Assembly: GCA_040954595.2 (NCBI GenBank)
Contig: CM082587.2
Span: 7,863,705-7,927,704, forward strand
Reading direction: 5' to 3'
Length of the DNA: 64,000 bases
Origin: Balanoglossus misakiensis
Lineage: Eukaryota; Animalia; Hemichordata
Shown: positions 29,625 to 60,707 of the stretch, piece by piece
How positions within the stretch are numbered: the first letter of the stretch is position 1
Layout of the letters: the number at the start of each line of letters is the position of its first letter
Notes under the pieces: generated by a model
Told to the model about the DNA's origin: nothing
Database searches by the model: none
The model's input: the letters and a program-made list of their open reading frames with translations, nothing else
Translations under genes and position numbers: made by a program

Positions 29625-31128
29625 TCTCTCCTGGGTAAGTTTGTGCTTCGAAATCAATGCATGGTTTACAAACGGTGTGTGTTCAAACAATTATTTTTGT
29701 TTCCGTGTACTGATGTGGCACTGTCTTATTATTTCTGGCAGCTGACCGTGCACAATTTACGCTTAGGGGAGAACCATTTGATGTCTGGGAGTGGGTTGAG
29801 AATTCGGGGGGGGGGGGCATTGTTTGCAGATGGTGACAAGGACACAATATTCTACAATGCCACGAAGGAACTGGTTATCGACTAAAACATTCCATGCAAC
29901 GTACCGTGGCTGAAAAAATGCTGACATGCCCGAATCATCCCCGGGCCCCCTGAAGAAATGATATGGTTCTCCCTTTACTCCGTACTTTTGCACTCAGGTC
30001 AGATTACTTGATCAGTCTCGCTAACTCATCTGCTTTCTTCTTTTAACAGAATTTACATCATCATGCGAGAAAAGGCGACGACGGACGAACAAACAACCAG
30101 ACGCCATTAGAGAATGACCGCGTCCTTTCGTATCTTATACGACGACGTATGCATCCGAAGAAAAGATGAGAACGGTTTTACTGCTGTACTCCGTCTTATT
30201 CACTTGATGCTATAACGCGTTATGCAAACCAAGCAGTCTAGCTGTGCACCCTAGCTGACTTTTCGATAGAACCCAGAATAAAAGCTTGTAATTCACACAC
30301 AAATAGCAAGCCGAAAACAATCCTTAGGAACTTTAAGAGCGAGTGTAAAGTTTTAACTAGGGTACCACTTTGAACTTGTATGTAGTAAACAGTGAAATGT
30401 TGGGCGATTATTTGTTCAAATGCTTTAAAGTTACCAAAATGCTAATAATGTAACACAATTTATACATTGTCCAGATTGGAGCAATGACGTTACTGTATGT
30501 TGATTTAATTGCTGCATGTTAGCTCGTTGTCTACTTTAGTTCTAAGAATGAGCGTACTCTCAGAACATCGGCTTTGAAATACCGTTTTGATGAAGTAATT
30601 TAAGGTCTGACCTCTCCTCCTGGACAGAATAGTAAAAAATGACACCCGTCTTCAACAATTACTATTGTTTTTCACTGTAAGGACATATTCTCTGATACAA
30701 GGGAAAAGATCATGATGGCGTACAATGTCGTTTTTTTTTTCAACGTCAAACGAATGACTTGAGAAGCGAAGACGTGCAAGGTCAAATTTAAATTTTGTAA
30801 TTTTAATACATGACAAGTATAATTCGGGTTCAAGAATGGATTTGTATCATCATATATTTTGATGAATGTTTTTTTTACTCAAGTTATGGTACTACTATAA
30901 GCTATAGGAACAAATAAAATGTAACTTACCGATCCTTCAAGAACGTGTTTAGTTGAATTTCCTTGAAGGTATGTTTGCAAGATTTGCTATTTGTGGTCAG
31001 TTGTGTGCATGGTTTGTGTGTGTGTCACAGTGCCACGACAAAGACTGCACGACATTTTGGACTGTTTTGTGAGAAATACACAATATGCACTTTGTACATA
31101 TTGACACTATTCTGCTTGGGCTAGCAGG

Positions 31129-37100: not shown

Positions 37101-40100
37101 ATTTCAAATTCATGGGTTATAGCTCATGAAAATCATCAAAAAATGACCATTTGCCGACTTTCCGAAACATCAAAAATTCTTCATTTTTTTATAAAATTCA
37201 TGGGTTATAGCTCAAGAAAATCATCAAATGACCATTTTTCGTCTTTCCGAAACATCAAAAATTCTTCATTTTTTGATAAAAATCATGGGTTATAGCTCAT
37301 GAAAATCATCAAAAAATGACAATTTTTCGACTTTCCGAAACATCAAAAATTCTTCATTTTTTGATAAAATTCATGGGTTATAGCTCATGAAAATCATCAA
37401 AAAATGACAATTTTTGGACTTTCCGAAACATCAAAAATTCTTCATTTTTTGATAAAATTCATGGGTTATAGCTCATGAAAATCATCAAAAAATAACCATT
37501 TGCCGACTTTCCGAAACATCAAAAATTCTTCATTGTTTGATAAAAATCATGGGTTATAGCTCATGAAAATTATCAAAAAATGACCATTTTTCGACTTTCC
37601 GAAACATCAAAAATTCTTCATTTTTTGATAAAATTCATGGGTTATAGCTCAAGAAAATCATCAAAAAATGACCATTTTTCGACTTTCCGAAACAACAAAA
37701 ATTCTTCATTTTTTGATAAAAATCATGGGTTATAGCTCATGAAAATCATCAAAAAATGACCATTTTGTCGAATTTCCGGAACATCAAAAATTCTTCATTT
37801 TTTGATAAAAATCATGGGTTATAGCTCATAAAAATCATCAAAAAATGACCATTTTTCGACTTTCCGAAACATCAAAAATTCTTCATTTTTTGATAAAAAT
37901 CATGGGTTATAGCTCATGAAAATCATCAAAAAATGATAATTTTTCGACTTTCCGAAACATCAAAAATTCTTCATTTTTTGATAAAAATCATGGGTTATAG
38001 CTCATGAAAATCATCAAAAAATGATAATTTTTCGACTTTCCGAAACATCAAAAATTCTTCATTTTTTGATAAAATTTATAGGTTATAGCTCATGAAAATC
38101 ATCAAAAAATGATAATTTTTCGACTTTCCGAAACATCAAAAATTCTTCATTTTTTGATAAAAATCATGGGTTATAGCTCATGAAAATCATCAAAAAATGA
38201 CCATTTTTCGACTTTCCGAAACATCAAAAATTCTTCATTTTTTGATAAAAATCATGGGTTATAGCTCATGAAAATCATCAAAAAATGATAATTTTTCGAC
38301 TTTCCGAAACATCAAAAATTCTTCATTTTTTGATAAAATTCATAGGTTATAGCTCATAAAAATCATCAAAAAATGACCATTTTTCGACTTTCCGAAACAT
38401 CAACAATTCTTCATTTTTTGATAAAAATCATGGGTTATAGCTCATGAAAATCTTCAAAAAATGACAATTTTTCGACTTACCGAAACATCAAAAATTCTTC
38501 ATTTTTTGATAAAAATCATGGGTTATAGCTCATGGAAATCATCAAAAAATGACCATTTTTCGACTTTCCGAAACATCGAAAATTTTTGATAAAAATCATG
38601 GGTTATAGCTCATGAAAATCATCAAAAAATGACCATTTTTCGACTTTCCGAAACATCGAAAATTCTTCATTTTTTGATAAAAATCATGGGTTATAGCTCA
38701 TGAAAATCATTAAAAAATGACCATTTTTCGACTTTCCGAAACATCGAAAATTCTTCATTTTTTGATAAAAATCATGGGTTATAGCTCATGAAAATCATCA
38801 AAAAATGACCATTTTTCGACTTTCCGAAACATCGAAAATTCTTCATTTTTTGATAAAAATCATGGGTTATAGCTCATGAAAATCATCAAAAAATGATAAT
38901 TTTTCGACTTTCCGAAACATCAAAAATTCTTCATTTTTTGATAAAATTCATAGGTTATAGCTCATGAAAATCATCAAAAAATGATAATTTTTCGACTTTC
39001 CGAAACATCAAAAATTCTTCATTTTTTGATAAAAATCATGGGTTATAGCTCATGAAAATCATCAAAAAATGACTATTTTTCGACTTTCCGAAACATCAAA
39101 AATTCTTCATTTTTTGATAAAAATCATGGGTTATAGCTCATGAAAATCATCAAAAAATGATAATTTTTCGACTTTCCGAAACATCAAAAATTCTTCATTT
39201 TTTGATAAAATTCATAGGTTATAGCTCATAAAAATCATCAAAAAATGACCATTTTTCGACTTTCCGAAACATCAACAATTCTTCATTTTTTGATAAAAAT
39301 CATGGGTTATAGCTCATGAAAATCTTCAAAAAATGACAATTTTTCGACTTACCGAAACATCAAAAATTCTTCATTTTTTGATAAAAATCATGGGTTATAG
39401 CTCATGGAAATCATCAAAAAATGACCATTTTTCGACTTTCCGAAACATCGAAAATTCTTCATTTTTTGATAAAAATCATGGGTTATAGCTCATGAAAATC
39501 ATCAAAAAATGACCATTTTTCGACTTTCCGAAACATCGAAAATTCTTCATTTTTTGATAAAAATCATGGGTTATAGCTCATGAAAATCATCAAAAAATGA
39601 CAATTTTTCGACTTTCCGAAACATCGAAAATTCTTCATTTTTTGATAAAAATCATGGGTTATAGCTCATGAAAATCATCAAAAAATGACCATTTTTCGAC
39701 TTTCCGAAACATCGAAAATTCTTCATTTTTTGATAAAAATCATGGGTTATAGCTCATGAAAATCATCAAAAAATGACCATTTTTCGACTTTCCGAAACAT
39801 CGAAAATTCTTCATTTTTTGATAAAAATCATGGGTTATAGCTCATGAAAATCATCAAAAAATGACAATTTTTCGACTTTCCGAAACATCGAAAATTCTTC
39901 ATTTTTTGATAAAAATCATGGGTTATAGCTCATGAAAATCATCAAAAAATGACCATTTTTCGACTTTCCGAAACATCGAAAATTCTTCATTTTTTGATAA
40001 AAATCATGGGTTATAGCTCATGAAAATCATCAAAAAATGATAATTTTTCGACTTTTCGAAACATCAAAAATTCTTCATTTTTTGATAAAATTCATGGGTT

Positions 40101-43100
40101 ATAGCTCATGAAAATCATCAAAAAATGACCATTTTTCGACTTTCCGAAACATCAAAAATTCTTCATTTTTTGATAAAATTCATGGGTTATAGCTCAAGAA
40201 AATCATCAAAAAATGACCATTTTTCGACTTTCCGAAACATCAAAAATTCTTCATTTTTTGATAAAAATAATGGGTTATAGCTCATGAAAATCATCAAAAA
40301 TGACCATTTTTCGACTTTCCGAAACATCAAAAATTCTTCATTTTTTGATAAAATTCATGGGTTATAGCTCATGAAAATCATCAAAAAATGACCATTTTTC
40401 GAATATCCGAAACATCAAAAATTCTTCATTTTTTGATAAAAATCATGGGTTATAGCTCAAGAAAATCATCAAAAAATGACCATTTTTCGACTTTCCGAAA
40501 CATCAAAAATTCTTCATTTTTTGATAAAAATAATGGGTTATAGCTCATGAAAATCATCAAAAATGACCATTTTTCGACTTTCCGAAACATCAAAAATTCT
40601 TCACTTTTTTATAAAATTCATGGGTAATAGCTCAAGAAAATCATCAAAAAATGACCATTTTTCGACTTTCCGAAACATCAAAAATTCTTCATTTTTTGAT
40701 AAAAATCATGGGTTATAGCTCATGAAAATTATCAAAAAATGACAATTTTTCGACTTTCCGAAACATCAAAAATTCTTCATTTTTTTTATAAAATTCATGG
40801 GTTATAGCTCAAGAAAATCATCAAAAAATGACCATTTTTCGACTTTCCGAAACATCAAAAATTCTTCATTTTTTTTATAAAATTCATGGGTTATAGCTCA
40901 AGAAAATCATCAAAAAATGACCATTTTTCGACTTTCCGAAACATCAAAAATTCTTCATTTTTTGATAAAATTCATTGGTTATAGCTCATGAAAATGATAA
41001 TTTTTCGACTTTCCGAAACATCAAAAATTCTTCATTTTTTGATAAAAATAATGGGTTATAGCCCATGAAAATCATCAAAAAATGACAATTTTTCGACTTT
41101 CCGAAACATCAAAAATTCTTCATTTTTTGATAAAAATCATGGGTTATAGCTCATGAAAATTATCAAAAAATGACCATTTTTCGACTTTCCGAAACATCAA
41201 AAATTCTTCATTTTTTGATAAAAATAATGTGTTATAGCTCATGAAAATCATCAAAAAATGACCATTTTTCGTCTTTCCGAAACATCAAAAATTCTTCATA
41301 TTTTATAAAAATCATGGGTTATAGCTCATGAAAATCATCAAAAAATGACAATTTTTCGACTTACCGAAACATCAAAAACTCTTCATTTTTTGATAAAAAA
41401 ATGACAATTCTTCGACTTTCCGAAACATCAAAAATTCTTCATTTTTTGATCAAATTCATGGGTTATAGCTCAAGAAAATCATCAAAAAATGACCATTTTT
41501 CGACTTTCCGAAACATCAAAAATTCTTCATTTTTTGATAAAAATAATGGGTTATAGCTCATGAAAATCATCAAAAATGACCATTTTTCGACTTTCCGAAA
41601 CATTAAAAATTCTTCATTTTTTTATAAAATTCATGGGTTAAAGCTCAAGAAAATCATCAAAAAATGACCATTTTTCGACTTTCCGAAACATCAAAAATTC
41701 TTCATTTTTTGATAAAAATCATGGGTTATAGCTCATGAAAATCATCAAAAAATGACAATTTTTCGACTTTCCGAAACATCAAAAATTCTTCATTTTTTTA
41801 TAAAATTCATGGGTTATAGCTCAAGAAAATCATCAAAAAATGACCATTTTTCGACTTTCCGAAACATCAAAAATTCTTCATTTTTTGATAAAATTCATTG
41901 GTTATAGCTCATGAAAATGATAATTTTTCGACTTTCCGAAACATCAAAAATTCTTCATTTTTTGATAAAAATAATGGGTTATAGCCCATGAAAATCATCA
42001 AAAAATGACAATTTTTCGACTTTCCGAAACATCAAAAATTCTTCATTTTTTGATAAAAATCATGGGTTATAGCTCATGAAAATTATCAAAAAATGACCAT
42101 TTTTCGACTTTCCGAAACATCAAAAATTCTTCATTTTTTGATAAAAATAATGGGTTATAGCTCATGAAAATCATCAAAAAATGACCATTTTTCGTCTTTC
42201 CGAAACATCAAAAATTCTTCATATTTTATAAAAATCATGGGTTATAGCTCATGAAAATCATCAAAAAATGACAATTTTTCGACTTACCGAAACATCAAAA
42301 ACTCTTCATTTTTTGATAAAAAAATGACAATTTTTCGACTTTCCGAAACATCAAAAATTCTTCATTTTTTGATCAAATTCATGGGTTATAGCTCAAGAAA
42401 ATCATCAAAAAATGACCATTTTTCGACTTTCCGAAACATCAAAAATTCTTCATTTTTTGATAAAAATAATGGGTTATAGCTCATGAAAATCATCAAAAAT
42501 GACCATTTTTCGACTTTCCGAAACATTAAAAATTCTTCATTTTTTTATAAAATTCATGGGTTAAAGCTCAAGAAAATCATCAAAAAATGACCATTTTTCG
42601 ACTTTCCGAAACATCAAAAATTCTTCATTTTTTGATAAAAATCATGGGTTATAGCTCATGAAAATCATCAAAAAATGACAATTTTTCGACTTTCCGAAAC
42701 ATCAAAAATTCTTCATTTTTTTATAAAATTCATGGGTTATAGCTCAAGAAAATCATCAAAAAATGAACATTTTTCGACTTTCCGAAACATCAAAAATTCT
42801 TCATTTTTTGATAAAATTCATGGGTTATAGCTCATGAAAATGATAATTTTTCGACTTTCCGAAACATCAAAAATTCTTTATTTTTTGATAAAAATCATGG
42901 GTTATAGCTCATGAAAATCATCAAAAAATGACAATTTTTCGACTTTCCGAAACATAAAAAATTCTTCATTTTTTGATAAAAATAATGGGTTATAGCTCAT
43001 GAAAATCATCAAAAAATGACCATTTTTCGTCTTTCCGAAACATCAAAAATTCTTCATTTTTTGAAAAGAATCATGGGTTATAGCTCATGAAAATTATCAA

Positions 43101-46100
43101 AAAATGACCATTTTTCGACTTTCCGAAACATCAAAAATTCTTCATTTTTTGATAAAAATCATGGGTTATAGCTCATGAAAATCATCAAAAAATGACCATT
43201 TTTCGACTTTCCGAAACATCAAAAATTCTTCATTTTTTGATAAAAATCATGGGTTATAGCTCATGAAAATCATCAAAAAATGACCATTTTTCGACTTTCC
43301 GAAACATCAAAAATTCTTCATTTTTTGATAAAAATCATGGGTTATAGCTCATGAAAATCATCAAAAAATGATAATTTTTCGACTTTCTGAAACATCAAAA
43401 ATTCTTCATTTTTTGATAAAAATCATGGGTTATAGCTCATGAAAATCTTCAAGAAATGACAATTTTTCGACTTACCGAAACATCAAAAATTCTTCATTTT
43501 TTGATAAAAATCATGGGTTATAGCTCATGGAAATCATCAAAAAATGACCATTTTTCAACTTTCCGAAACATCGAAAATTCTTCATTTTTTGATAAAAATC
43601 ATGGGTTATAGCTCATGAAAATCATCAAAAAATGACCATTTTTCGACTTTCCGAAACATCAAAAATTCTTCATTTTTTGATAAAAATAATGGGTTATAGC
43701 TCATAAAAATCATCAAAAAATGACCATTTTTCGACTTTCCGAAACATCAAAAATTCTTCATTTTTTGATAAAAATCATGGGTTATAGCTCATGAAAATTA
43801 TCAAAAAATGACCATTTTTCGACTTTCCGAAACATCAAAAATTCTTCATTTTTTTTATAAAATTCATGGGTTATAGCTAAAGAAAATCATCAAAAAATGA
43901 CCATTTTTCGACTTTCCGAAACATCAAAAATTCTTCATTTTTTGATAAAATTCATTGGTTATAGCTTGAAAATGATAATTTTTCGACTTTCCGAAACATC
44001 AAAAATTCTTCATTTTTTGATAAAAATCATGGGTTATAGCTCAAGAAAATCATCAAAAAATGACCATTTTTCGACTTTCCGAAACATCAAAAATTCTTCA
44101 TTTTTTTATAAAATTCATGGGTTATAGCTCAAGAAAATCATCAAAAAATGACCATTTTTCGACTTTCCGAAACATCAAAAATTCTTCATTTTTTGATAAA
44201 AATCATGGGTTATAGCTCATGAAAATCATCAAAAAATGACCATTTTTCGACTTTCCGAAACAATCAAAAATTTTTCATTTTTTGATAAAAATCATGGGTT
44301 ATAGCTCATGAAAATCATCAAAAAATGACCATTTTTCGACTTTCCGAAACATCAAAAATTCTGCATTTTTTGATAAAAATCATGGGTTATAGCTCATGAA
44401 AATCATCAAAAAATGATAATTTATCGACTTTCCGAAACATCAAAAATTCTTCATTTTTTGATAAAAATCATGGGTTATAGCTCATGAAAATCTTCAAAAA
44501 ATGACAATTTTTCGACTTACCGAAACATCAAAAATTCTTCATTTTTTGATAAAAAATCATGGGTTATAGCTCATGGAAATCATCAAAAAATGACCATTTT
44601 TCGACTTTCCGAAACATCAAAAATTCTTCATTTTTTTATAAAATTCATGGGTTATAGCTCAAGAAAATCATCAAAAAATGACCATTTTTCGACTTTCCGA
44701 AACATCAAAAATTCTTCATTTTTTGATAAAAATCATGGGTTATAGCTCATGAAAATCATCAAAAAATGACCATTTTTCGACTTTCCGAAACATCAAAAAT
44801 TCTTCATTTTTTGATAAAAATCATGGGTTATAGCTCATGAATATCATCAAAAAATGACCATTTTTCGACTTTCCGAAACATCAAAAATTCTTCATTTTTT
44901 GATAAAAATCATGGGTTATAGCTCATGAAAATCATCAAAAAATGATCATTTTTCGACTTTCCGAAACATCAAAAATTCTTCATTTTTTGATAAAAATCAT
45001 GGGTTATAGCTCATGAAAATCATCAAAAAATGATAATTTTTCGACTTTCTGAAACATCAAAAATTCTTCATTTTTTGATAAAAATCATGGGTTATAGCTC
45101 ATGAAAATCTTCAAAAAATGACAATTTTTCGACTTACCGAAACATCGAAAATTCTTCATTTCTTGATAAAAATCATGGGTTATAGCTCATGGAAATCATC
45201 AAAAAATGACCATTTTTCAACTTTCCGAAACATCGAAAATTCTTCATTTTTTGATAAAAATCATGGGTTATAGCTCATGAAAATCATCAAAAAATGACCA
45301 TTTTTCGACTTTCCGAAACATCGAAAATTCTTCATTTTTTGATAAAAATCATGGGTTATAGCTCATGAAAATCATCAAAAAATGATAATTTTTCGACTTT
45401 CCGAAACATCAAAAATTCTTCATTTTTTTTGAAAAAAATCATGGGTTATAGCTCATGAAAATCATCAAAAAATGACCATTTTTCGACTTTCCGAAACATC
45501 AAAAATTCTTCATTTTTTGATAAAAATCATGGGTTATAGCTCATGAAAATCATCAAAAAATGACCATTTTTCGAATATCCGAAACATCAAAAATTCTTCA
45601 TTTTTTGATAAAAATCATGGGTTATAGCTCAAGAAAATCATCAAAAAATGACCATTTTTCGACTTTCCGAAACATCAAAAATTCTTCATTTTTTGATAAA
45701 AATAATGGGTTATAGCTCATGAAAATCATCAAAAAATGACAATTTTTCGACTTTCCGAAACATCAAAAATTCTTCATTTTTTGATAAAATTCATGGGTTA
45801 TAGCTCATGAAAATCATCAAAAAATGACAATTTTTCGACTTTCCGAAACATCAAAAATTCTTCATTTTTTGATAAAATTCATGGGTTATAGCTCATGAAA
45901 ATCATCAAAAAATGACCATTTTTCGACTTTCCGAAACATCAAAAATTCTTCAATGTTTGATAAAAATCATGGGTTATAGCTCATGAAAATCATCAAAAAA
46001 TGACCATTTTTCGACTTTCCGAAACATCAAAAATTCTTCATTTTTTGATAAAAATCATGGGTTATAGCTCAAGAAAATAATCAAAAAATGACCATTTTTC

Positions 46101-46569
46101 GACTTTCCGAAACAACAAAAATTCTTCATTTTTTGATAAAAATCATGGGTTATAGCTCATGAAAATCATCAAAAAATGACCAGTTTTCGACTTTCCGAAA
46201 CATCAAAAATTCTTCATTTTTTGATAAAAATCATGGGTTATAGCTCATGAAAATCATCAAAAAATGACCATTTTTCGACTTTCCGAAACATCAAAAATTC
46301 TTCACTTTTTGAAAAAAAATCATGCGTTATAGCTCATGAAAATCATCAAAAAATGACCATTTTTCGACTTTCCGAACCGAAACATCAAAAATTCTTCATT
46401 TTTTAAATAAAAATCATGGGTTATAGCCTAAGAAAATCATCAAAAAATGACCATTTTTCGACTTTCCGAAACATCAAAAATCCTTCATTTTTTGATAAAA
46501 TTCATGGCTTATAGCTCATGAAAATCATCAAAAAATGACCATTTTTCGACTTTCCGAAACATCAAAAAT
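31129..46569 (+). repeat. Satellite array, 88-bp AT-rich monomer, ~175 copies
   Basis: Consensus ATAGCTCATGAAAATCATCAAAAAATGACCATTTTTCGACTTTCCGAAACATCAAAAATTCTTCATTTTTTGATAAAAATCATGGGTT; period 88 (e.g. 37821 to 37909). Confidence 0.98.
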
Positions 46570-49500
46570 AGGTAAAAGGGAAGCCTTCCTGAACCCTTCG
46601 CCATCACGATGTGTTCTCGAACAAGTCGGAAATGTACCGCACTATATTGCAGCATAACTACAATGATCTTATTTGCACCGCAGCGGTGCGAAGTGTTATT
46701 TGCACCGCAGCGGTGCAAATAAGAGTTTACACCGCTGCGGTGCAAATAAGAGTTCCCTGCACCGCAATGATCTGACCGTTCTTTATTCACTCCTCGGCGA
46801 CAAAAACGTTTTATTACGGCCCAAATAATGACTTTTTCGCTCCTTGGTTGGTCATGCGGACGGAAAGACACGGTTTTAGCGAGTTTATCTTTCTCTTTCC
46901 TGAGCACTACGTATTCAGACTTGCCCAAGTGAACCGCGACATAAAATGACCAAGTTTCCCTGCATGTTTCTTATACCCGTCAGTTAAAAAACGCAGCGTA
47001 GATATTGAAATGAATTGGATTTATGAAAATGATTAAAATTACAATGATAATGTCGTTAAAAGTCCTCAAAAAAAAAAATAGAAAAAAGTGGTCTCGAACC
47101 AACATCAGTTGACACCTTGAGGTAAAAGTCAAGCCTTCCTGAACCCTTCGCCATCACGATGTGTTCTCAAAAAAGTCGGAAATTTACCGCACTATGTTGC
47201 AGCATAACAAAAATGATCTTATTTGCACCGCAGCGGTGCGAAGTGTTATTTGCACCGCAGCGGTGCAAATAAGAGTTTACACCGCTGCGGTGCAAATAAG
47301 AGTTCCCTGCACCGCAACGATCTGACCGTTCTTTATTCACTCCTCGGCGACAAAAACGTTTTATTACGGCCCAAATAATGACTTTTTCGCTCCTTGGTTG
47401 GTCATGCGGACGGAACGACACGGTTTTAGCGAGATTATCTTTCTCTTTCCTGAGCACTACGTATTCAGACTTGCCCAAGTGAACCGCGACAAAAAATGAC
47501 CAAGTTTCCCTGCATGTTTCTTATACCCGACAGTTAAAAAACGCAGCGTAGATATTGAAAAGAATTGGATTTATGAAAATGATTAAAATTACAATGATAA
47601 TGTCGTTAAAAGTTCTCACAAAAAAAAAAATAGAAAAAAGTGGTCTCGAACCAACATCAGTTGACACCTTGAGGTAAAAGTCAAGCCTTCCTGAACCCTT
47701 CGCCATCACGATGTGTTCTCAAAAAAGTCGGAAATTTACCGCACTATATTGCAGCATAACTACAATGATCTTATTTGCACCGCAGCGGTGCGAAGTGTTA
47801 TTTGCACCGCAGCGGTGCAAATAAGAGTTTACACCGCTGCGGTGCAAATAAGAGTTCCCTGCACCGCAACGATCTGACCGTTCTTTATTCACTCCTCGGC
47901 GACAAAAACGTTTTATTACGGCCCAAATAATGACTTTTTCGCTCCTTGGTTGGTCATGCGGACGGAAAGACACGGTTTTAGCGAGATTATCTTTCTCTTT
48001 CCTGAGCACTACGTATTCAGACTTGCCCAAGTGAACCGCGACAAAAAAATGACCAAGTTTCCCTGCATGTTTCTTATACCCGACAGTTAAAAAACGCAGC
48101 GTAGATATTGAAATGAATTGGATTTATGAAAATGATTAAAATTACAATGATAATGTCGTTAAAAGTTCTCACACAAAAAGAAAAGAAAAAAACGTGGTCT
48201 CGAACCAACATCAGTTGACACCTTGAGGTAAAAGTCAAGCCTTCCTGAACCCTTCGCCATCACGATGTGTTCTCAAAAAAGTCGGAAATTTACCGCACTA
48301 TGTTGCAGCATAACAAAAATGATCTTATTTGCACCGCAGCGGTGCGAAGTGTTATTTGCACCGCAGCGGTGCAAATAAGAGTTTACACCGCTGCGGTGCA
48401 AATAAGAGTTCCCTGCACCGCAACTATCTGACCGTTCTTTATTCACTCCTCGGCGACAAAAACGTTTTATTACGGCCCAAATAATGACTTTTTCGCTCCT
48501 TGGTTGGTCATGCGGACGGAAAGACACGGTTTTAGCGAGATTATCTTTCTCTTTCCTGAGCACTACGTATTCAGACTTGCCCAAGTGAACCGCGACAAAA
48601 AAATGACCAAGTTTCCCTGCATGTTTCTTATACCCGACAGTTAAAAAACGCAGCGTAGATATTGAAATGAATTGGATTTATGAAAATGATTAAAATTACA
48701 ATGATAATGTCGTTAAAAGTTCTCACAAAAAAAAAATAGAAAAAAGTGGTCTCGAACCAACATCAGTTGACACCTTGAGGTAAAAGTCAAGCCTTCCTGA
48801 ACCCTTCGCCATCACGATGTGTTCTCAAAAAAGTCGGAAATTTACCGCACTATATTGCAGCATAACTACAATGATCTTATTTGCACCGCAGCGGTGCGAA
48901 GTGTTATTTGCACCGCAGCGGTGCAAATAAGAGTTTACACCGCTGCGGTGCAAATAAGAGTTCCCTGCACCGCAACGATCTGACCGTTCTTTATTCACTC
49001 CTCGGCGACAAAAACGTTTTATTACGGCCCAAATAATGAATTTTTCGCTCCTTGGTTGGTCATGCGGACGGAAAGACACGGTTTTAGCGAGTTTATCTTT
49101 CTCTTTCCTGAGCACTACGTATTCAGACTTGCCCAAGTGAACCGCGACAAAAAAATGACCAAGTTTCCCTGCATGTTTCTTATACCCGACAGTTAAAAAA
49201 CGCAGCGTAGATATTGAAATGAATTGGATTTATGAAAATGATTAAAATTACAATGATAATGTCGTTAAAAGTCCTCAAAAAAAAATAGAAAAAAGTGGTC
49301 TCGAACCAACATCAGTTGACACCTTGAGGTAAAAGTCAAGCCTTCCTGAACCCTTCGCCATCACGATGTGTTCTCAAAAAAGTCGGAAATTTACCGCACT
49401 ATGTTGCAGCATAACAAAAATGATCTTATTTGCACCGCAGCGGTGCGAAGTGTTATTTGCACCGCAGCGGTGCAAATAAGAGTTTACACCGCTGCGGTGC

Positions 49501-52500
49501 AAATAAGAGTTCCCTGCACCGCAACGATCTGACCGTTCTTTATTCACTCCTCGGCGACTAAAACGTTTTATTACGGCCCAAATAATGACTTTTTCGCTCC
49601 TTGGTTGGTCATGCGGACGGAAAGACACGGTTTTAGCGAGATTATCTTTCTCTTTCCTGAGCACTACGTATTCAGACTTGCCCAAGTGAACCGCGACAAA
49701 AAAATGACCAAGTTTCCCTGCATGTTTCTTATACCCGACAGTTAAAAAACGCAGCGTAGATATTGAAATGAATTGGATTTATGAAAATGATTAAAATTAC
49801 AATGATAATGTCGTTAAAAGTTCTCACACAAAAAAAAAGAAAAAAACGTGGTCTCGAACCAACATCAGTTGACACCTTGAGGTAAAAGTCAAGCCTTCCT
49901 GAACCCTTCGCCATCACGATGTGTTCTCAAAAAAGTCGGAAATTTACCGCACTATGTTGCAGCATAACAAAAATGATCTTATTTGCACCGCAGCGGTGCG
50001 AAGTGTTATTTGCACCGCAGCGGTGCAAATAAGAGTTTACACCGCTGCGGTGCAAATAAGAGTTCCCTGCACCGCAACTATCTGACCGTTCTTTATTCAC
50101 TCCTCGGCGACAAAAACGTTTTATTACGGCCCAAATAATGACTTTTTCGCTCCTTGGTTGGTCATGCGGACGGAAAGACACGGTTTTAGCGAGATTATCT
50201 TTCTCTTTCCTGAGCACTACGTATTCAGACTTGCCCAAGTGAACCGCGACAAAAAAATGACCAAGTTTCCCTGCATGTTTCTTATACCCGACAGTTAAAA
50301 AACGCAGCGTAGATATTGAAATGAATTGGATTTATGAAAATGATTAAAATTACAATGATAATGTCGTTAAAAGTTCTCACAAAAAAAAAATAGAAAAAAG
50401 TGGTCTCGAACCAACATCAGTTGACACCTTGAGGTAAAAGTCAAGCCTTCCTGAACCCTTCGCCATCACGATGTGTTCTCAAAAAAGTCGGAAATTTACC
50501 GCACTATATTGCAGCATAACTACAATGATCTTATTTGCACCGCAGCGGTGCGAAGTGTTATTTGCACCGCAGCGGTGCAAATAAGAGTTTACACCGCTGC
50601 GGTGCAAATAAGAGTTCCCTGCACCGCAACGATCTGACCGTTCTTTATTCACTCCTCGGCGACAAAAACGTTTTATTACGGCCCAAATAATGAATTTTTC
50701 GCTCCTTGGTTGGTCATGCGGACGGAAAGACACGGTTTTAGCGAGTTTATCTTTCTCTTTCCTGAGCACTACGTATTCAGACTTGCCCAAGTGAACCGCG
50801 ACAAAAAAATGACCAAGTTTCCCTGCATGTTTCTTATACCCGACAGTTAAAAAACGCAGTGTAGATATTGAAATGAATTGGATTTATGAAAATGATTAAA
50901 ATTACAATGATAATGTCGTTAAAAGTCCTCAAAAAAAAATAGAAAAAAGTGGTCTCGAACCAACATCAGTTGACACCTTGAGGTAAAAGTCAAGCCTTCC
51001 TGAACCCTTCGCCATCACGATGTGTTCTCAAAAAAGTCGGAAATTTACCGCACTATGTTGCAGCATAACAAAAATGATCTTATTTGCACCGCAGCGGTGC
51101 GAAGTGTTATTTGCACCGCAGCGGTGCAAATAAGAGTTTACACCGCTGCGGTGCAAATAAGAGTTCCCTGCACCGCAACTATCTGACCGTTCTTTATTCA
51201 CTCCTCGGCGACAAAAACGTTTTATTACGGCCCAAATAATGACTTTTTCGCTCCTTGGTTGGTCATGCGGACGGAAAGACACGGTTTTAGCGAGATTATC
51301 TTTCTCTTTCCTGAGCACTACGTATTCAGACTTGCCCAAGTGAACCGCGACAAAAAAATGACCAAGTTTCCCTGCATGTTTCTTATACCCGACAGTTAAA
51401 AAACGCAGCGTAGATATTGAAATGAATTGGATTTATGAAAATGATTAAAATTACAATAATAATGTCGTTAAAAGTTCTCACAAAAAAAAAAATAGAAAAA
51501 AGTGGTCTCGAACCAACATCAGTTGACACCTTGAGGTAAAAGTCAAGCCTTCCTGAACCCTTCGCCATCACGATGTGTTCTCAAAAAAGTCGGAAATTTA
51601 CCGCACTATATTGCAGCATAACTACAATGATCTTATTTGCACCGCAGCGGTGCGAAGTGTTATTTGCACCGCAGCGGTGCAAATAAGAGTTTACACCGCT
51701 GCGGTGCAAATAAGAGTTCCCTGCACCGCAACGATCTGACCGTTCTTTATTCACTCCTCGGCGACAAAAACGTTTTATTACGGCCCAAATAATGAATTTT
51801 TCGCTCCTTGGTTGGTCATGCGGACGGAAAGACACGGTTTTAGCGAGTTTATCTTTCTCTTTCCTGAGCACTACGTATTCAGACTTGCCCAAGTGAACCG
51901 CGACAAAAAAATGACCAAGTTTCCCTGCATGTTTCTTATACCCGACAGTTAAAAAACACAGCGTAGATATTGAAATGAATTGGATTTATGAAAATGATCA
52001 AAATTACAATGATAATGTCGTTAAAAGTTCTCACACACACAAAAAAAGAAAAAAACGTGGTCTCGAACCAACATCAGTTGACACCTTGAGGTAAAAGTCA
52101 AGCCTTCCTGAACCCTTCGCCATCACGATGTGTTCTCAAAAAAGTCGGAAATTTACCGCACTATGTTGCAGCATAACAAAAATGATCTTATTTGCACCGC
52201 AGCGGTGCGAAGTGTTATTTGCACCGCAGCGGTGCAAATAAGAGTTTACACCGCTGCGGTGCAAATAAGAGTTCCCTGCACCGCAACTATCTGACCGTTC
52301 TTTATTCACTCCTCGGCGACAAAAACGTTTTATTACGGCCCAAATAATGAATTTTTCGCTCCTTGGTTGGTCATGCGGACGGAAAGACACGGTTTTAGCG
52401 AGATTATCTTTCTCTTTCCTGAGCACTACGTATTCAGACTTGCCCAAGTGAACCGCGACAAAAAAATGACCAAGTTTCCCTGCATGTTTCTTATACCCGA

Positions 52501-54473
52501 CAGTTAAAAAACGCAGCGTAGATATTGAAATGAATTGGATTTATGAAAATGATTAAAATTACAATAATAATGTCGTTAAAAGTTCTCACAAAAAAAAAAA
52601 TAGAAAAAAGTGGTCTCGAACCAACATCAGTTGACACCTTGAGGTAAAAGTCAAGCCTTCCTGAACCCTTCGCCATCACGATGTGTTCTCAAAAAAGTCG
52701 GAAATTTACCGCACTATATTGCAGCATAACTACAATGATCTTATTTGCACCGCAGCGGTGCGAAGTGTTATTTGCACCGCAGCGGTGCAAATAAGAGTTT
52801 AAACCGCTGCGGTGCAAATAAGAGTTCCCTGCATCGCAACGATCTGACCGTTCTTTATTCACTCCTCGGCGACAAAAACGTTTTATTACGGCCCAAATAA
52901 TGACTTTTTCGCTCCTTGGTTGGTCATGCGGACGGAAAGACACGGTTTTAGCGAGTTTATCTTTCTCTTTCCTGAGCACTACGTATTCAGTCTTGCCCAA
53001 GTGAACCGCGACAAAAAAATGACCAAGTTTCCCTGCATGTTTCTTATACCCGACAGTTAAAAAACACAGCGTAGATATTGAAATGAATTGGATTTATGAA
53101 AATGATCAAAATTACAATGATAATGTCGTTAAAAGTTCTCACACACACAAAAAAAGAAAAAAACGTGGTCTCGAACCAACATCAGTTGACACCTTGAGGT
53201 AAAAGTCAAGCCTTCCTGAACCCTTCGCCATCACGATGTGTTCTCAAAAAAGTCGGAAATTTACCGCACTATGTTGCAGCATAACAAAAATGATCTTATT
53301 TGCACCGCAGCGGTGCGAAGTGTTATTTGCACCGCAGCGGTGCAAATAAGAGTTTACACCGCTGCGGTGCAAATAAGAGTTCCCTGCACCGCAACTATCT
53401 GACCGTTCTTTATTCACTCCTCGGCGACAAAAACGTTTTATTACGGCCCAAATAATGACTTTTTCGCTCCTTGGTTGGTCATGCGGACGGAAAGACACGG
53501 TTTTAGCGAGTTTATCTTTCTCTTTCCTGAGCACTACGTATTCAGACTTGCCCAAGTGAACCGCGACAAAAAAATGACCAAGTTTCCCTGCATGTTTCTT
53601 ATACCCGACAGTTAAAAAACGCAGCCTAGATATTGAAATGAATTGGATTTATGAAAATGATTAAAATTACAATGATAATGTCGTTAAAAGTTCTCACCAA
53701 AAAAAAAAATAGAAAAAAAGTGGTCTCGAACCAATATCAGTTGACACCTTGAGGTAAAAAGTCAAGCCTTCCTGAACCCTTCGCCATCACGATGTGTTCT
53801 CAAAAAAGTCGGAAATTTACCGCACTATATTGCAGCATAACTACGATTATCTTATTTGCACCGCAGCGGTGCGAAGTGTTATTTGCACCGCAGCGGTGCA
53901 AATAAGAGTTTACACCGCTGCGGTGCAAATAAGAGTTCCCTGCACCGCAACGATCTGACCGTTCTTTATTCACTCCTCGGCGACAAAAACGTTTTATTAC
54001 GGCCCAAATAATGACTTTTTCGCTCCTTGGTTGGTCATGCGGACGGAAAAACACGGTTTTAGCGAGTTTATCGTTCTCTTTCCTGAGCACTACGTATTCA
54101 GACTTGCCCAAGTGAACCGCGACAAAAAAATGACCAAGTTTCCCTGCATGTTTCTTATACCCGACAGTTAAAAAACGCAGCGTAGATATTGAAATGAATT
54201 GGATTATGAAAATGATTAAAATTACAATGATCATGTCGTTAAAAGTTCTCAAAAAAAAAGAAAAGAAAAAAAAGTGGTCTCGAACCAACATTAGTTGACA
54301 CCTTGAGGTAAAAGTCAAGCCTTCCTGAACCCTTCGCTATCACGATGTGTTCTCGAAAAAGTCGGATATTTACCGCAGTTTATGTATATTGCAGCATAAC
54401 TACAATGATCTTATTTGCACCGCAGCGGTGCGAACTCTTATTTGCACCGCAGCGGTGAGGGCGCTTGGTCCCC
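46570..54473 (+). repeat. Tandem array of ~553-bp monomer, ~14.3 copies
   Basis: AGGTAAAAG landmark from 46570 to 54306 in 14 steps (mean ~552.6 bp); source of the repeated 103-aa pseudo-ORFs; right end GAGGGCGCTTGGTCCCC|TAA. Confidence 0.98.
47082..47160 (-). ncRNA. tRNA-like Pol III cassette (first of 14, one per 553-bp monomer); not a complete tRNA
   Basis: Minus strand ATCGTGA-TGGCGAAGGG (A-box-like)-TTCAGGAAGG-CTTGA-CTTTTACC-TCAAG (anticodon-like stem-loop)-GTGTCAACTGATGTT-GGTTCGAGACC (exact GGTTCGANNCC B box)-AC-TTTTTT (terminator-like). The 3' acceptor strand is absent. Confidence 0.6.
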
Positions 54474-54474
54474 T

Positions 54475-55018
54475 AATGACCATTTTTCGACTTTCCGAAA
54501 CATCAAAAATTCTTCATTTTTTGATAAAAATAATGGGTTATAGCTCATGAAAATCGTCAAAAGATGACCATTTTTCGACTTTCCGAAACATCAAAAATTC
54601 TTCATTTTTTGATAAAAATCATGGGTTATAGCTCATGAAAATCAACAAATGACCATCATTCGACTTTCCGAAACATCAAAATTTCTTCATTTTTTGAAAA
54701 GAATCATGGGTTATAGCTCATGAAAATTATCCAAAAATGACAATTTTTCCACTTTGCGAAAGTTCAAAATTTCTTCATTTTTTGAAAAAAATCATGGGTT
54801 ATAGCTCATGAAAATCATCCAAAAAAGACAATTTTTCGACTGTGCGGAACTTCAAAAATTCTTCATTTTTTGAAAAAAAATCATGGGTTATAGCTCATGA
54901 AAATCATCAAAATATGACCATTTGTCGACTTTCAGACATTTCAAAAATTCGTCATTTTTGGAGGCTTTCCGAAACATCAAAATTTCGTCATTTTTGATAA
55001 AAAATCCTGGGTTATAGC
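54475..55018 (+). repeat. Short right-hand array of the 88-bp satellite (~6 monomers, diverging outward)
   Basis: Same monomer and same orientation as 31129-46569; outer copies carry more substitutions. Confidence 0.95.
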
Positions 55019-56256
55019 AGCAGGGTAGACACTTTTCACCTCTCCTAGCAATGTTGGCTGACCCGGTACTCAGCATTTCCAAAACAAGGTGACCTCCACA
55101 CCACCCAATTCCAAAGCAGGGTGTCCCCCCCCCCCCCCCCCCCGTATAATCCAACCCCTGATGAAGAACTGACCAGTCCCTTACGTAGTATGACGACAGG
55201 CACGGCGAATGCCATAGAGGCTAAGGATGAGGATGAGGCTAACTTCACGTACGTGTTGTGTGTGTAGCGTGCATTGATTCTAAGTGACTCTCTAAGTTAA
55301 TGGTAGAAAGTGTTTTGCCAGATAGTCACGTTTTGTCAGACAGTCGCCGCACGTTTTGTAGCCGAACCTGTCTCTGTCTCTGAAAATCCATTGACGGCGC
55401 CCTCTGGAGTGGCAATCTTCAGCGATGTTGTGATTCTTGTGGAGTGGGCCATATTTCATAATTCTAGAAATAATTTGTCAATTTAAGGGGTTAAATAATT
55501 TCATATCTATATTCCGTTGTTTGAGCTAGCATTATTGTATGTTGGCATATTTTTTTATAGGACGGATTAAAATTACGCCGGTCGTCGAAAATACAAAACT
55601 ATTTTCAGTTACTTGAAAATCCGAAATTGAACCCGAATCCGAGTTTAATTTCACCAGCGGTGAGAGTGAGAGTGACGGTCTGAGGGGAGGGGTTAGGTGA
55701 GGGTTTGCTTCTCAAGAAGGCTGAAATTGAACGCTTTCGAAAGTATCTGTAGTAGAAGAAATTTAAGGAATTCCTGGAGAACGGATGACTATACAGGTAT
55801 GACCACTGCTGCTTTGATTTACAGTTTATTGAGATTTTTTTCCCCCGTAGATCAACCGGTGGTTTGTGAACTGATCTACGTGATGTTATTAACCCTCTTA
55901 CGTCCCGGTCCGTGATTGAATGCCGTGGTACATATTTACGGGATATTTAGCTGTTTAACCAGTTAATTGAATGGAAAACTCTCCATGATTTTGGTGATAA
56001 AGTAGTCAGGTAGGCTAAAAAAAAATAACTGATTTTGTTGTGTTCTTATGTCAAGGAACACAGGCCCAATGATAGGGAAATCCCCCAAGCCTATTCACGT
56101 GATCAGTAGTATTCATTAGTCTTTGTGTTGGAATATTCCTTCCGTCGTTTAGTGTGGACACTAGGTACAGCTGCGTACCACAGCTAACACAGACACTGAT
56201 AATTTTTCCCCTTCAAGGTCATCAAGCCAAGGTCCTAACTCTACCATTGGTACACA

Positions 56257-59200
56257 ATGCCAGGATATCCCAGAGAAATATTTGCGTCATTACCAGAAGA
56301 GAAGTATCTGTGTACACACTGTCAACTTATCTTGAAGGATCCAGTACAGACATACTGTGGTCATCGATATTGCAAGGGATGCGTTGAAGACATTCTCAGG
56401 TAGACCGCTTCGCTGACAATCGAATATTTTTTTTGCAATGCATACATGTACATGTACATGTAGGTCATAGAACACCTGTAACTATTGTCAAGCGAATGAT
56501 CCAACACCACCAATTTACACACGTCCATATATGGCTGAAATTGCGTATTTGAGTGTCCTACTGAACATATGATGCCGCCCTTTTTTTCACTGAAAATCTG
56601 TGATTGGCTACATCTCAAATTACCATGGTAACTGTAGCTAAATCTGCATAGATGTAGGTGACAGTATACCTTTAAAGCTGATGTCCCTTTAAACTTGCCT
56701 TTTGTCATTTTATGACACACAGTCAACCTGGACGTCACTCCTGTGTTGTTTGTGCTGAAGAATTTCAGGATGACCCAGACAATTTAATAACAGCTGATCA
56801 GGTAAGGCTGACCCAAATGGCTTAAGTAGTATGCGCCTCCAAAGTCAGCCTTAACCCTAACGCTACTGCGCTACTGGGTGTCATAGAACGTTGGAGTCTG
56901 AAGTCCACAAAAATACGAATGGCACTGGTATAAGTATTTTAATGAAGTTAATTTCTTTGCTTGGCTGCCGTGTGTGTATTAAGATGGGGTCATTTGCCTC
57001 AATTTAGCTGTATCCACTGTTTATGATCATCTTGGCCTGATCAAATTATCCTGCAGAGCTGTACAAATAATTGACATTACACAGTCTGATACCAATTCAT
57101 TCTCTCCATGGTCAAGTATACCCGGCATTCTAGAGAAGGGGGGGGGGTTATGAAAATTACTATGTTTGCCACTGACTCGGCACTGTTAGGGTTAAACCTT
57201 TTCTCATATTTTGCTCATGCAAGGCAACTTTAGATTATTCTTCCTTAGAATTGAGAATAAAAAAAATGGGGATCACCATGCAAAAATTTGAAAGGAGAGC
57301 AAAATTGTTTTAAGTTAGAAATTCAAAATGGCTGCCAATCTCTGTGTACTGTTAACTCAACATGCATATACAGATAAAACTGAAAGTCATGATTTTTGGT
57401 GGCTTTGAAGGAAAGCTTGGGAAGCTGGCTTACAGGGTTCATATTGAGAGAGAGGGACTGGGAGGGACGACGGATCACATGGTTTGCCATTGTTGTTAGT
57501 GGATGCACTCCCTGGTAGATGGCAGTATACACCAGTGCTCAAGGGTTTTTGTGTCATTCACAGATTTTTCCAGACTTTGCCATCAAACGGGAATTGCGAC
57601 GTGTCAACGTCAAGTGTATCAATAATGGATGTGAGTGGTCTGGAATGTTTAAGGATCATGAGGTACTTTCCATTCATTATGGCTGATATTATCACCTGTG
57701 GCATTTATGTTTTGCAATATGTTCCTGTATTTGTATTTGTAGAGTACATGAAGGAAATGCCTACATCACTTTTGAATCGTGTTCCGTTACGTGATAAAAA
57801 AATGCACATATTATATTTATAGGGGGCCTTTTCCCATTGAGTAACATAGGGACATGAAGCAATTGATGTGTTATCCCTTCCACCAGGTACATGTACCAGA
57901 GTGTGCATATGGTGTCATTGTTTGCATCAAAAGTGGATGTAATCAACAGATATTGCGGAGTCAGTTGACTGAACATCTTGAGCATCAGTGTTTAATGAGA
58001 GTTGTCCAGTGTCACTTCTGTCAACATGAAATCACCACCAAGAACTTGAAGGTGAGATTAACATTTGCAGTGGTGTATAGCTTTGAAAACTGCTTATTTC
58101 AGTTTATAAATATTAGTGGGGGGGGGGTTCTTTGATGTTTTTGGATGATGTGTATGTAGCGAAAATCCTCCGTGGAAAAGTGCTGGAGTCAGAGTGATAC
58201 TGAAGCATTGAATATGAATCAGCATGTGTGTTGATTGGTGTGATCATCACTGGCGTGTTTGAATACACACACAGTTTTTATGTGCTTCTGGTGTTGCTTT
58301 GGAATGCTCAAAATTCCTGTTTATTTTTCACCGCAATCCCCCTGCTTTTTATTTTCATGCAGCTTCACCATGACAACTGTCCAAAAGTCCTGAAAACCTG
58401 CGAGTTTTGTGGAAAGGAAAATATACCCAGAGAGAAGGTAAATGCAACCACTGGGGCTATAGGAAACCTTGCTTGATATACATGTACACAGAACGAAAAT
58501 ACTGAAAAGTTACAAAAGTTACAGATAGTGTTTCTTTGAGTGAAAAAAAAGTATATGGCTTATCGTAAAGATTTAGGACAACACCCAAATTTGAGTCTAG
58601 GGGTCAATTTTGCTACCAAAGTTAATGTGATTAATTTTAACACAGTAGATTTCCCAATGCAGGAACAACATTTTACATGTACATGAACACTGTCTGAATC
58701 CTGTTTATTTTCTGTCATTCAGTTTGCTGCTCACATTGATGCTGAGAGAGGTGACTGCAAAAAGAGGATGTGTCCATGTATATATAAATTGGCTGGCTGC
58801 AAGGAGTTGGTAAGTCAATTCCTGATACATGTGTAGATATAATTTTGCTAAATATAGACATCTGAGCGTTTAATTATGAAATATGATGAAAGGCCCAGTG
58901 TTTAGCTTATCAACACATGACATATATGTGTACAGTCAGCATTGTTCATGTGCAAAATTTGAATTCAAGTCCAGACTAGGATTCATTTGTCAAAAGTAAT
59001 AGTGGCCATTACATACATGTACGTACAGGCTATGTTGATGAGTGAGGTATATTAGCATGATGTTTGGAATAGAGCAAGAAATTGCATTTGATACACAGAA
59101 TAAAAATACTGGAAATGAAGCTAAAAGATACAGCTAATGTCCTTTTAATACAATAATAGTTAGATACGCCCCATACCACTTCCATACGGAAGCGAGTCGT

Positions 59201-60699
59201 TAGTATTGCAGTAGTTGTCCAAGAACATGAGGTGTCCACTGTCTTGTTTTCATAAAAAAATTACTATGTTGATCTCATCTGTATTTTCAATTTCAAGGTG
59301 GAGGTTGACAAGGCTGACCAGCATATTGCTAAACACCACAGCCAGCATCTAGAGCTGGTCTACCGTATGTTGTGCGGAGCATGCGCCAACATTGAAAAGC
59401 TGAATGAAGAAATTCATACACCTGCAAGAAGTGGACCAACAACAGAACAGCAGAAGACAGCTCAAGAGTCAGAAAGCAGAGTATCTAAAACACCACAGCA
59501 AGACAGAGAAGTGATCGAGTCGCTCAAGGAAAAGGTCAAAGCTCAAGACCACGACATTACAGTTCTACATCTTGCGTTAGCAGAACAAGATCAGCGTTTT
59601 TTTTTACAAGAGAAAGCTTCGTACAATGGAACTCTGATCTGGAAAATTTCTGACTTTGCTAGGAGACGACAAGATGCCCAGTCGGGAAGAAGCTTATCTT
59701 TGTATTCACCTTGCTTCTACACGAGTCGCCATGGTTACAAGATGTGTGCCAGGATCTACCTGAACGGAGATGGGATGGGGAAGGGAAATTACATTTCGCT
59801 GTTTTTTGTCATCATGAGAGGAGAGTTTGATGCTATACTGAGATGGCCATTCAGACAGAAGGTACAGTTTATTATTGTAGTATCTTTATTGTGAATGTGA
59901 GTAGTTTTGTTTAAGACTGATTACTTACTGTAACACACTTAATTTTCGCGAGTAAACATTTTCGCGATATCGAGAGAGGCCACTGTTTCGCGAGTATTAA
60001 TTTTCGCGTTTTCTTATTTCATTCACTGCATCATTATCTTCAAAAACAGTTTACGCGACTTTTTATTTTCATGCTCATATGGCTCTCGCGTATTTCGCGA
60101 AAATTTATTCCTCGCGAAAATAGTGTTTTACAGTACTTAATGACAGTGTCTTTCTATTCACAAGTGCTGTGTCACTTATACAGAGCATATCAAATATATC
60201 AGTCATCAACTGTTATCTACCACCTTGTCAGCTTTTTTTCCTATTGTTGTTTACCAATATACAAAACCATTATTTTTTTCATAATTGACAAGGAAGGATT
60301 GGATTCAGATAGATTCAAATTGTGACAAAATGACCAGTGATGACGTTTCAGGATATTTTCATCATTGGACATTTGGCCTACAGAATGATCTAGTAAGAGT
60401 TGTGTAAATTATTGCTACTACCAACTGAGATACAGCAGTACTCAACGCTCTGAGTCATTTTTTTGCAGGTAACTTTCATACTGCTTGACCAGAACAACCA
60501 TCAACATGTGACTGATGCTTTCCGACCCGATCCAAAGTCAAGTTCGTTTAAAAGGCCGACCTCGGACATGAACGTGGCGTCTGGATGTCCTATGTTCGTG
60601 CCCTTACTCCAGCTCGACAGCAGTGACCACGCCTATGTGAAGGACGACGTGATGTTCATCAAAGTCATTGTGGATGTCGCAGATCTCCCGAACGCGTAG
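56257..60699 (+). CDS. TRAF2: TNF receptor-associated factor, TRAF2-like (RING, 5 zinc fingers, coiled coil, MATH), ~480 aa, 8 coding exons
   Basis: Exons 56257-56399, 56723-56801, 57564-57662, 57887-58051, 58363-58437, 58723-58809, 59298-59861, 60469-60699 (1443 nt). RING CTHC...CGHRYCKGC...CVVC; MATH motifs GTLIWKI, SPCFYTSRHGYKMCARIYLNGDG, WPFRQKVTFILLDQ, AFRPD, NVASGCPMF. In-frame TAA just upstream of the ATG. Exact orthology within TRAF1/2/3/5 needs a tree. Confidence 0.93.
56851..57195. mobile_element. piggyBac-like non-autonomous element (TTAA TSD) in TRAF intron 2
   Basis: TTAA|CCCTAAC at 56851 and GTTAGGG|TTAA ending at 57195; TIR match is only ~7 bp. Confidence 0.5.
59926..60135. 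mobile_element. TA-flanked MITE with internal TTTTCGCG repeats, TRAF intron 7
   Basis: TACTGTAACACACTTAATTTTCGCGAG...CTCGCGAAAATAGTGTTTTACAGTA. Confidence 0.8.
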
Positions 60700-60707
60700 A
60701 AGAGAAC

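What the first reader, a model, noticed from the sequence alone, without database searches (positions are those of the whole stretch)
46570..54350. Fourteen tandem tRNA-like Pol III cassettes inside the satellite core
Seen: each 553-bp monomer has, on the minus strand, an A-box-like TGGCGAAGGG, an anticodon-like stem-loop CTTGA-CTTTTACC-TCAAG (cf. tRNA-Lys(UUU) loop CTTTTAA), a long variable region, an exact B box GGTTCGAGACC and then a T6-7 run. No 3' acceptor strand, so it cannot be a working tRNA. Established: A+B boxes recruit TFIIIC, T runs end Pol III transcripts, and TFIIIC sites can act as chromatin barriers. Inference: an amplified source of a ~75-nt ncRNA, or a TFIIIC barrier array between the 15-kb satellite and the TRAF gene.
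Basis: partly seen in the sequence, partly recalled or inferred. Interest (0 to 1): 0.8.

Follow-up and report, generated by a model that had tools for sequence, protein, structure and literature searches.

The report
Satellite carrying Pol III promoter-like boxes
Fourteen near-identical 553-base repeats, each with two polymerase III promoter-like boxes and a T run but no tRNA shape, are a small offshoot of a likely abundant satellite family that landed inside another satellite; the boxes are likely passengers, and whether they make any RNA is untested.

Summary
The motifs are real: 14 full cassettes and one half cassette (box A-like, box B-like, T6-8), period 549-556. Both boxes miss the published consensus by one base; 29-50 of 15,000 shuffled monomers match as well. 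The tRNA reading is not supported: no Rfam, custom tRNA-model or inter-box similarity, and the 'anticodon stem' is complete only in a minority subfamily, 3-8% of the family by depth. The unit belongs to a tandem family of likely hundreds to thousands of copies, on at least three chromosome-scale contigs. Its boxes show no excess conservation (low power). The array sits inside the 88-bp satellite, with 5.5 more units before the TRAF gene, which argues against a barrier role. Best reading: an OAX/PolIII-TAN-like satellite whose promoter relic is carried passively and which spread as Rsp-like does into 1.688. The scan noted a similar case in another genome (e1-9594098). Transcription and TFIIIC binding are untested.

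The parts
46570..54456 (-). Tandem array of the ~553-bp unit: 14 full units plus a ~102-bp partial at the right end and a ~49-bp partial at the left end
47082..47160 (-). Example cassette: predicted ~77-nt type-2 Pol III unit if +1 lies 7 bases before box A (inferred)
47143..47153 (-). Box A-like, one mismatch to TRGYnnARBGG; a variant at 47146 in 9-15% of the family by depth
47090..47100 (-). Box B-like GGTTCGAGACC, one mismatch to GGTTCRAnYCY; no variant in the rows shown
47116..47133 (-).
47082..47087 (-). T6 run two bases after box B (T6-8 across copies), followed by a second, variable T run
47210..47310 (.). Three 27-bp palindromic subrepeats per monomer (arms up to 13 bp around one base), just upstream of the cassette
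46570..46618 (-). Half cassette (box A, no box B) joined without microhomology to the 88-bp satellite
54457..54475 (.). About 19 bases of filler at the right junction, found nowhere else in the window at up to 4 mismatches
31132..46569 (+). 88-bp satellite, 175.7 units; each unit boundary is a near-palindrome (22 of 30 positions)
54475..55017 (+). 88-bp satellite resumes in the same orientation (5.5 units by TRF, to 54959, then a decayed tail) between the array and the TRAF gene
56257..60700 (+). Neighbouring TRAF-family gene (RING-like first coding exon read from the sequence; MATH domain by Pfam); not part of the array

Best explanation
The 553-bp unit is a satellite monomer that holds a box A / box B / T-run cassette, likely the worn relic of a Pol III small-RNA gene or SINE head, likely carried along passively as the satellite amplifies. 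Shown: the motifs, the tandem family, copies on other chromosomes, the nesting inside the 88-bp satellite. Inferred: a piece of at least one monomer plus ~150 bp from a minority subfamily was copied into the 88-bp array by a repair event (blunt left joint, filler at the right) and then grew to 14 units by unequal exchange. Inferred from general knowledge: unsilenced copies could bind TFIIIC through box B and give a ~77-nt U-tailed RNA, as amphibian Pol III satellites can, but nothing here shows that selection keeps the boxes or the RNA shape.
For: Cassette layout rare in shuffles, 29-50 of 15,000. Family is tandem and deep: head-to-tail joint in 11 contigs of run X1, share of laid contigs that run on into unlike sequence 0-0.01 in X1 and X2. 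99%-identical cassettes on three chromosome-scale contigs of B1, six of them within 8.3 kb on C2. Rough copy number 2,300-2,700 if the 47034 allele is private to this array; other alleles give 175-6,400 (depth is not a copy number). Boxes not more conserved than the rest: 1 of 21 vs 33 of 530 sites (p 0.62) and 1 of 21 vs 37 of 340 (p 0.33). Predicted RNA folds no better than shuffles: z 0.16 locally, -0.33 to -0.93 with majority alleles. Different haplotypes favour different hairpins. Internal monomers fall into recurring near-identical sets (units 4, 6, 8, 11 differ by 0-2 bases; 7 and 10 by 1) while the edge units keep the family-majority base at the 47169-equivalent site. Precedents: OAX, PolIII/TAN, Rana/polIII (PMC10702118, PMC12054243, passages); Rsp-like inserting into 1.688 (PMC7403614, passages).
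Against: No parent gene was found: no Rfam match at E<=10 on the 116-bp cassette, none with a class II tRNA model or its sequence-only profile, inter-box similarity at chance level. So 'relic' rests on the boxes alone. Box B lies in a 31-37-bp stretch with no listed variant, which selection would also give, although equal or longer stretches occur elsewhere in the unit. The conservation test has low power, rests on one sample, and 15 of 55 variant rows were hidden. No junction microhomology was found at the left joint.
Confidence: 0.5

Rival explanations
1. The boxes are chance look-alikes in a palindrome-rich, T-rich satellite and never were a promoter.
For: No similarity to any RNA family outside the boxes. 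Box B sits in a short inverted repeat like several others in the unit. T runs of 5-7 are common in the monomer. With box A allowed two mismatches, 334 of 15,000 shuffles pass; without the T run the unique flank has one A+B pair, about as expected. A genome scan looks at many monomers.
Against: At the observed match level only 0.2-0.3% of shuffled monomers pass; order, strand, spacing (53, inside the 51-69 range of the class II tRNAs) and the T run directly after box B all agree.
Confidence: 0.27
2. The family is an active, amplified Pol III gene family (OAX-like) making a ~77-nt RNA, probably in oocytes or early embryos, and the RNA or its transcription has a role.
For: Complete promoter-terminator layout in 14 of 14 full units; no listed variant in box B; high copy number; with majority alleles the predicted RNA is a long stem plus a box-B hairpin; PolIII/TAN is transcribed in vitro and oax is expressed in Xenopus (PMC10702118, PMC4361676, passages).
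Against: No excess conservation; fold no better than shuffles and not kept between haplotypes, with no compensatory changes seen in the three haplotypes folded; an internal T4 (T5 in one copy) lies before box B and could end transcripts early (termination at T4 is recalled knowledge).
Confidence: 0.17
3. The array is a TFIIIC chromatin barrier kept to shield the TRAF gene from satellite heterochromatin.
For: TFIIIC sites and tRNA genes can act as barriers (PMC12409998, passages); the nearest cassette is about 1.9 kb from the TRAF start codon.
Against: 5.5 satellite units lie between the array and the gene; the other end of the satellite, next to another gene, has no cassette; near-identical cassettes lie in arrays on two other chromosomes; the array looks recent and locally expanded.
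Confidence: 0.05

Closest known systems
Amphibian Pol III tandem repeats: Xenopus OAX / satellite I, newt PolIII/TAN (~360 nt), Rana/polIII (~250 nt), Hy/polIII (as described in PMC10702118 and PMC12054243; passages read)
   Same: Long tandem monomer with an internal type-2 Pol III promoter-like segment; no known parent SINE; high copy number.
   Different: Those have recognised tRNA similarity (64% over 64 nt for Rana/polIII) or shown transcription; here similarity stops at the boxes, the T run follows box B at once, transcription is untested, and the host is an invertebrate (acorn worm according to other notes of the scan, unchecked).
Rsp-like arrays inside 1.688 satellite clusters of Drosophila simulans (PMC7403614; passages read)
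   Same: One satellite seeded inside an older, more abundant one, with truncated edge units, unannotated filler at one joint and local expansion.
   Different: No microhomology at the left joint here; the two edge partials do not add up to one monomer, so the simple circle-reintegration signature is missing.
tRNA-derived SINE heads and SINE-derived satellites of squamates (PMC10702118; passages read)
   Same: Boxes A and B without a 3' acceptor strand, in tandem arrays.
   Different: No dispersed parent SINE seen: almost all laid contigs stay within the unit; a T run right after box B would end the transcript before any body or tail.
Vault RNA (PMC11855390; passages read)
   Same: Internal box A and box B, short U-tailed transcript, occasional gene clusters.
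   Different: No Rfam Vault match; only 2-3 bases between box B and the T run, so no 5'/3' panhandle.

Membership tests
tRNA gene | Cloverleaf with acceptor stem; covariance-model or ARAGORN call | tested here: not met
   no 3' acceptor strand
tRNA gene | Anticodon arm: 5-bp stem, 7-base loop | tested here: not met
   8-9-base loop; 5 of 5 pairs locally, 2 of 5 with majority alleles
tRNA-derived sequence (SINE head type) | Similarity to a tRNA between and around the boxes | tested here: inconclusive
   Not above chance against 106 Ser/Leu-type tRNAs from metagenomes (p 0.63 inter-box; 0.24 whole cassette, boxes fixed) and no hit with models from 19 of them; host tRNAs and other isotypes were not available
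SINE | Dispersed copies with unique flanks, target duplications, body and tail | tested here: not met
   Share of laid contigs running on into unlike sequence 0-0.01 in X1, X2; one 1,485-bp contig holds only the cassette, sequence not seen
Type-2 Pol III transcription unit | Box A and box B in order and spacing, T4+ terminator | tested here: met
   One mismatch per box to the consensus of PMC7279448; spacing 53; T6-8
Type-2 Pol III transcription unit | TFIIIC / Pol III occupancy and a transcript | not testable with these tools
   No run on record as RNA was listed
Amphibian-type Pol III satellite (OAX, PolIII/TAN) | High-copy tandem monomer with internal Pol III promoter-like segment | tested here: met
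Amphibian-type Pol III satellite (OAX, PolIII/TAN) | Sequence homology to those families | not tested
   Their sequences were not at hand; the genome-index search that included vertebrates gave only one 36-base AT-rich match outside the cassette. Analogy, not membership, is claimed
Vault RNA | 5'/3' panhandle and Rfam Vault match | tested here: not met
Hammerhead retrozyme / Sm-alpha type | CUGANGA ... GAAA core | tested here: not met
   No core on either strand of two monomers; no hammerhead among the 68 rows
TFIIIC barrier (ETC-type) | Position at the heterochromatin edge and TFIIIC-dependent blocking | tested here: inconclusive
   Position is inside the satellite; binding and blocking cannot be tested here

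The most novel reading that the evidence does not exclude
A satellite of some thousand copies is a live Pol III gene family in a non-vertebrate deuterostome: it makes a ~77-nt U-tailed hairpin RNA of no known family in the germ line, and that RNA or the bound TFIIIC helps organise or silence the satellite itself.
Probability: 0.12. Interest if true: 0.65.

Novelty: new member of a known kind. Interest (0 to 1): 0.27.

Why it matters
If passive, it is one more satellite with a Pol III promoter relic, a kind described in amphibians and reptiles, here in an invertebrate, and a clean example of one satellite seeding inside another. If transcribed, it would give a second, independent system in which to ask what OAX-type RNAs do (function not clarified according to PMC4361676) and whether a thousand box-B sites titrate TFIIIC. 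My searches for hemichordate satellite/SINE papers and for tRNA-like Pol III satellites in invertebrates listed nothing on such a family, but the library lacks most subscription journals.

Tried and rejected
Rfam: 0 matches at gathering score over the window; 68 weak rows over 46400-48400, mostly miRNA models on the palindromes, of which 3 (Chloroflexus-1, 16.6-18.2 bits against 181.5) touch a cassette's 5' end; 0 on the cassette alone. ARAGORN: no tRNA, 5 tmRNA calls that I reject as artefacts of the T-arm-like hairpin in an animal repeat. Own class II tRNA model: 119 rows at E<=10, mostly on the 88-bp satellite and palindromes, none on a cassette; sequence-only: 3 rows, none on a cassette. 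First chance test with patterns fitted to the cassette (0 and 9 of 20,000) set aside as post hoc; one search was noisy and was redone. Expression: no RNA holder listed. Run X3 is small (28 million letters of contigs) and shows the family at depth only 3-59 without a rise at the cassette; it may be an RNA library, but is labelled 'DNA?', so no verdict. Runs X4/X5 (another organism label) hold the unit at depth under 25 over most bins; may be carry-over, not used. Metagenome scan for the A+B pattern: 0. Genome index: outside B1 only short AT-rich or box-B-plus-T-run matches. No whole genome was held, so solo copies, host tRNAs and a direct copy count could not be examined. Whether the 553/88 junction recurs elsewhere did not complete. 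No long ORF in the unit (longest 103 aa inside). Foldback arrangement of the 88-bp satellite rejected: all 129 unit words on one strand. Bacterial promoter scan irrelevant. The OAX primary paper (PMC555291) was not held.

Full report
Observation. On the minus strand of 46570-54456 lie 14 full units of 549-556 bases and two edge partials. A half cassette ends the array at 46570. Against the consensus printed in PMC7279448 (passages) each box has one mismatch. Such a combination appears in 29 (narrow spacing) to 50 (wide spacing) of 15,000 shuffled monomers and 0.045-0.095 times per shuffled 40 kb of the unique flanks, where the real count is 0. It is unusual for one monomer but not beyond a genome-wide scan; the 14 copies are one event.

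Is it tRNA-like? Only in the boxes. ARAGORN calls no tRNA. Rfam gives nothing on the 116-base cassette at E<=10. I fetched 122 metagenome loci by a D-arm motif; they held 106 distinct tRNAs with the motif, 91 Ser, 13 Leu, 2 other. The 32 bases between the D-stem-like word and box B match the best of them no better than shuffles (p 0.63), and the whole cassette with boxes fixed gives p 0.24. A covariance model and a sequence profile built from 19 of these tRNAs miss the cassette at E<=10. The spacing fits class II tRNAs (51-69). Host tRNAs could not be tested. The predicted RNA folds no better than shuffles (z 0.16). No hammerhead core, no vault panhandle (PMC11855390 passages).

The unit is a member of a large family. 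One genome nearly identical to the window (B1, invertebrate, ~330 Mb) has 12 or more 98-99% matches to the cassette on three chromosome-scale contigs, six within 8.3 kb on C2. Contigs of runs X1 and X2 (one sample, possibly the window's source) cover the whole unit at summed depths of about 26,000 to 1,060,000, show the head-to-tail joint, and almost never run on into unlike sequence. The allele shared by all 14 local copies at 47034 makes up 0.53% and 0.60% of depth, which would mean about 2,300-2,700 copies if it is private; other alleles give 175-6,400. Depth is not a copy number, so I claim only hundreds to thousands.

The family undercuts the anticodon reading. At 47119, 47129 and 47131 the local allele holds 3-8%, 16-25% and 21-28% of depth. 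The majority alleles instead complete a different hairpin over 47143-47117, and the half cassette at the edge completes a third. The alleles are not phased, and the direction of change is unknown: the local state could be the older, more tRNA-like one. Repeated perfecting of different inverted repeats is what template switching at quasi-palindromes does (PMC3820800, start of abstract only); this is an inference.

Conservation. From the variant tables, the 21 box positions carry 1 variable site against 33 of 530 elsewhere at the 5% cut-off (p 0.62) and against 37 of 340 at the 1% cut-off (p 0.33; 40 of 55 rows shown). Box B has no listed variant and lies in a 37-base run free of 5% variants, but runs of 37, 67 and 106 bases occur elsewhere in the unit. 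The test has little power and does not exclude selection.

Setting and history. The 88-bp satellite covers 31132-46569 and resumes in the same orientation at 54475 for 5.5 units, so the array is inside it. The left joint has no microhomology; the right has about 19 bases of filler found nowhere else in the window. Inner units form recurring near-identical sets (4, 6, 8, 11; 7, 10; 3, 5; 9, 12) while edge units are the most divergent and keep the family-majority base at the 47169-equivalent site. I infer one insertion of a short piece, then growth by unequal exchange, as described for Rsp-like in 1.688 (PMC7403614, passages). The TRAF gene (MATH domain) starts coding at 56257, on the other strand. 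The far end of the satellite also adjoins a gene and has no cassette. A barrier role selected for this gene is therefore unlikely, although TFIIIC sites can be barriers (PMC12409998, passages).

Mechanism, ranked. Passive promoter relic in a satellite, 0.5; chance look-alike, 0.27; active OAX-like RNA family with a role, 0.17; selected barrier, 0.05. Shown: motifs, tandem family, copies elsewhere, nesting, lack of tRNA similarity. Inferred: promoter ancestry, insertion route, passivity. Untested: binding and transcription.

Known kinds. Tandem repeats with tRNA-like Pol III promoters are described: OAX, PolIII/TAN, Rana/polIII, Hy/polIII (PMC10702118; PMC12054243; PMC4361676; passages only, no supplements). 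This family works like them in layout; homology was not tested. Pol III units that feed Dicer exist in C. elegans (PMC12487709, passages), but there the hairpin lies after box B, whereas here the T run follows box B at once. The scan noted a similar passenger case in another genome (e1-9594098), which gave me the lead to these papers; it found no look-alike of this DNA. The acorn-worm identity of the host comes from other notes and was not checked.

Verdict: real motifs, weak tRNA claim, new member of a known kind, interest 0.27.

Noticed in passing
B5:C1:5877-11345: A genome of another phylum has six matches, 0.9-1.2 kb apart on one 49-kb contig, to only the box B plus T-run part of the cassette (28-33 bases, 88-94%). 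Could be an analogous array or low-complexity chance; sequence withheld.
   Followed up: no
run X2, 1,485-bp contig laid on window 47070-47185: Holds only the cassette (13 differences, depth 75) within otherwise unlike sequence: a candidate solo or parent copy.
   Followed up: no
window 31132-46569: The 88-bp unit is near-palindromic about its boundary (22 of 30 positions), like head-to-tail tiny inverted-repeat elements; another note reports an 87-bp palindromic satellite in this genome.
   Followed up: partly
window 31120-31131 and 55014-55027: The word AGCAGGG flanks the whole 24-kb satellite block on both sides as a direct repeat: possible target duplication or microhomology.
   Followed up: no
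window 47210-47310 and equivalents: Three 27-bp palindromic subrepeats per monomer form very stable hairpins (z -11.4) and may drive instability; family contigs show 54-58-base deletions here.
   Followed up: partly
window 15157-24826: Several 0.3-1.1-kb segments recur in direct and inverted orientation at 78-91% identity, a likely nest of transposon copies.
   Followed up: no
window 41253-42987: A ~920-bp higher-order duplication with a 56-bp truncated unit inside the 88-bp satellite.
   Followed up: no
window 28180-29640: Exons of an apparently secreted or membrane protein with two similar Ala/Thr/Cys-rich modules, next to the left end of the satellite; not identified.
   Followed up: no
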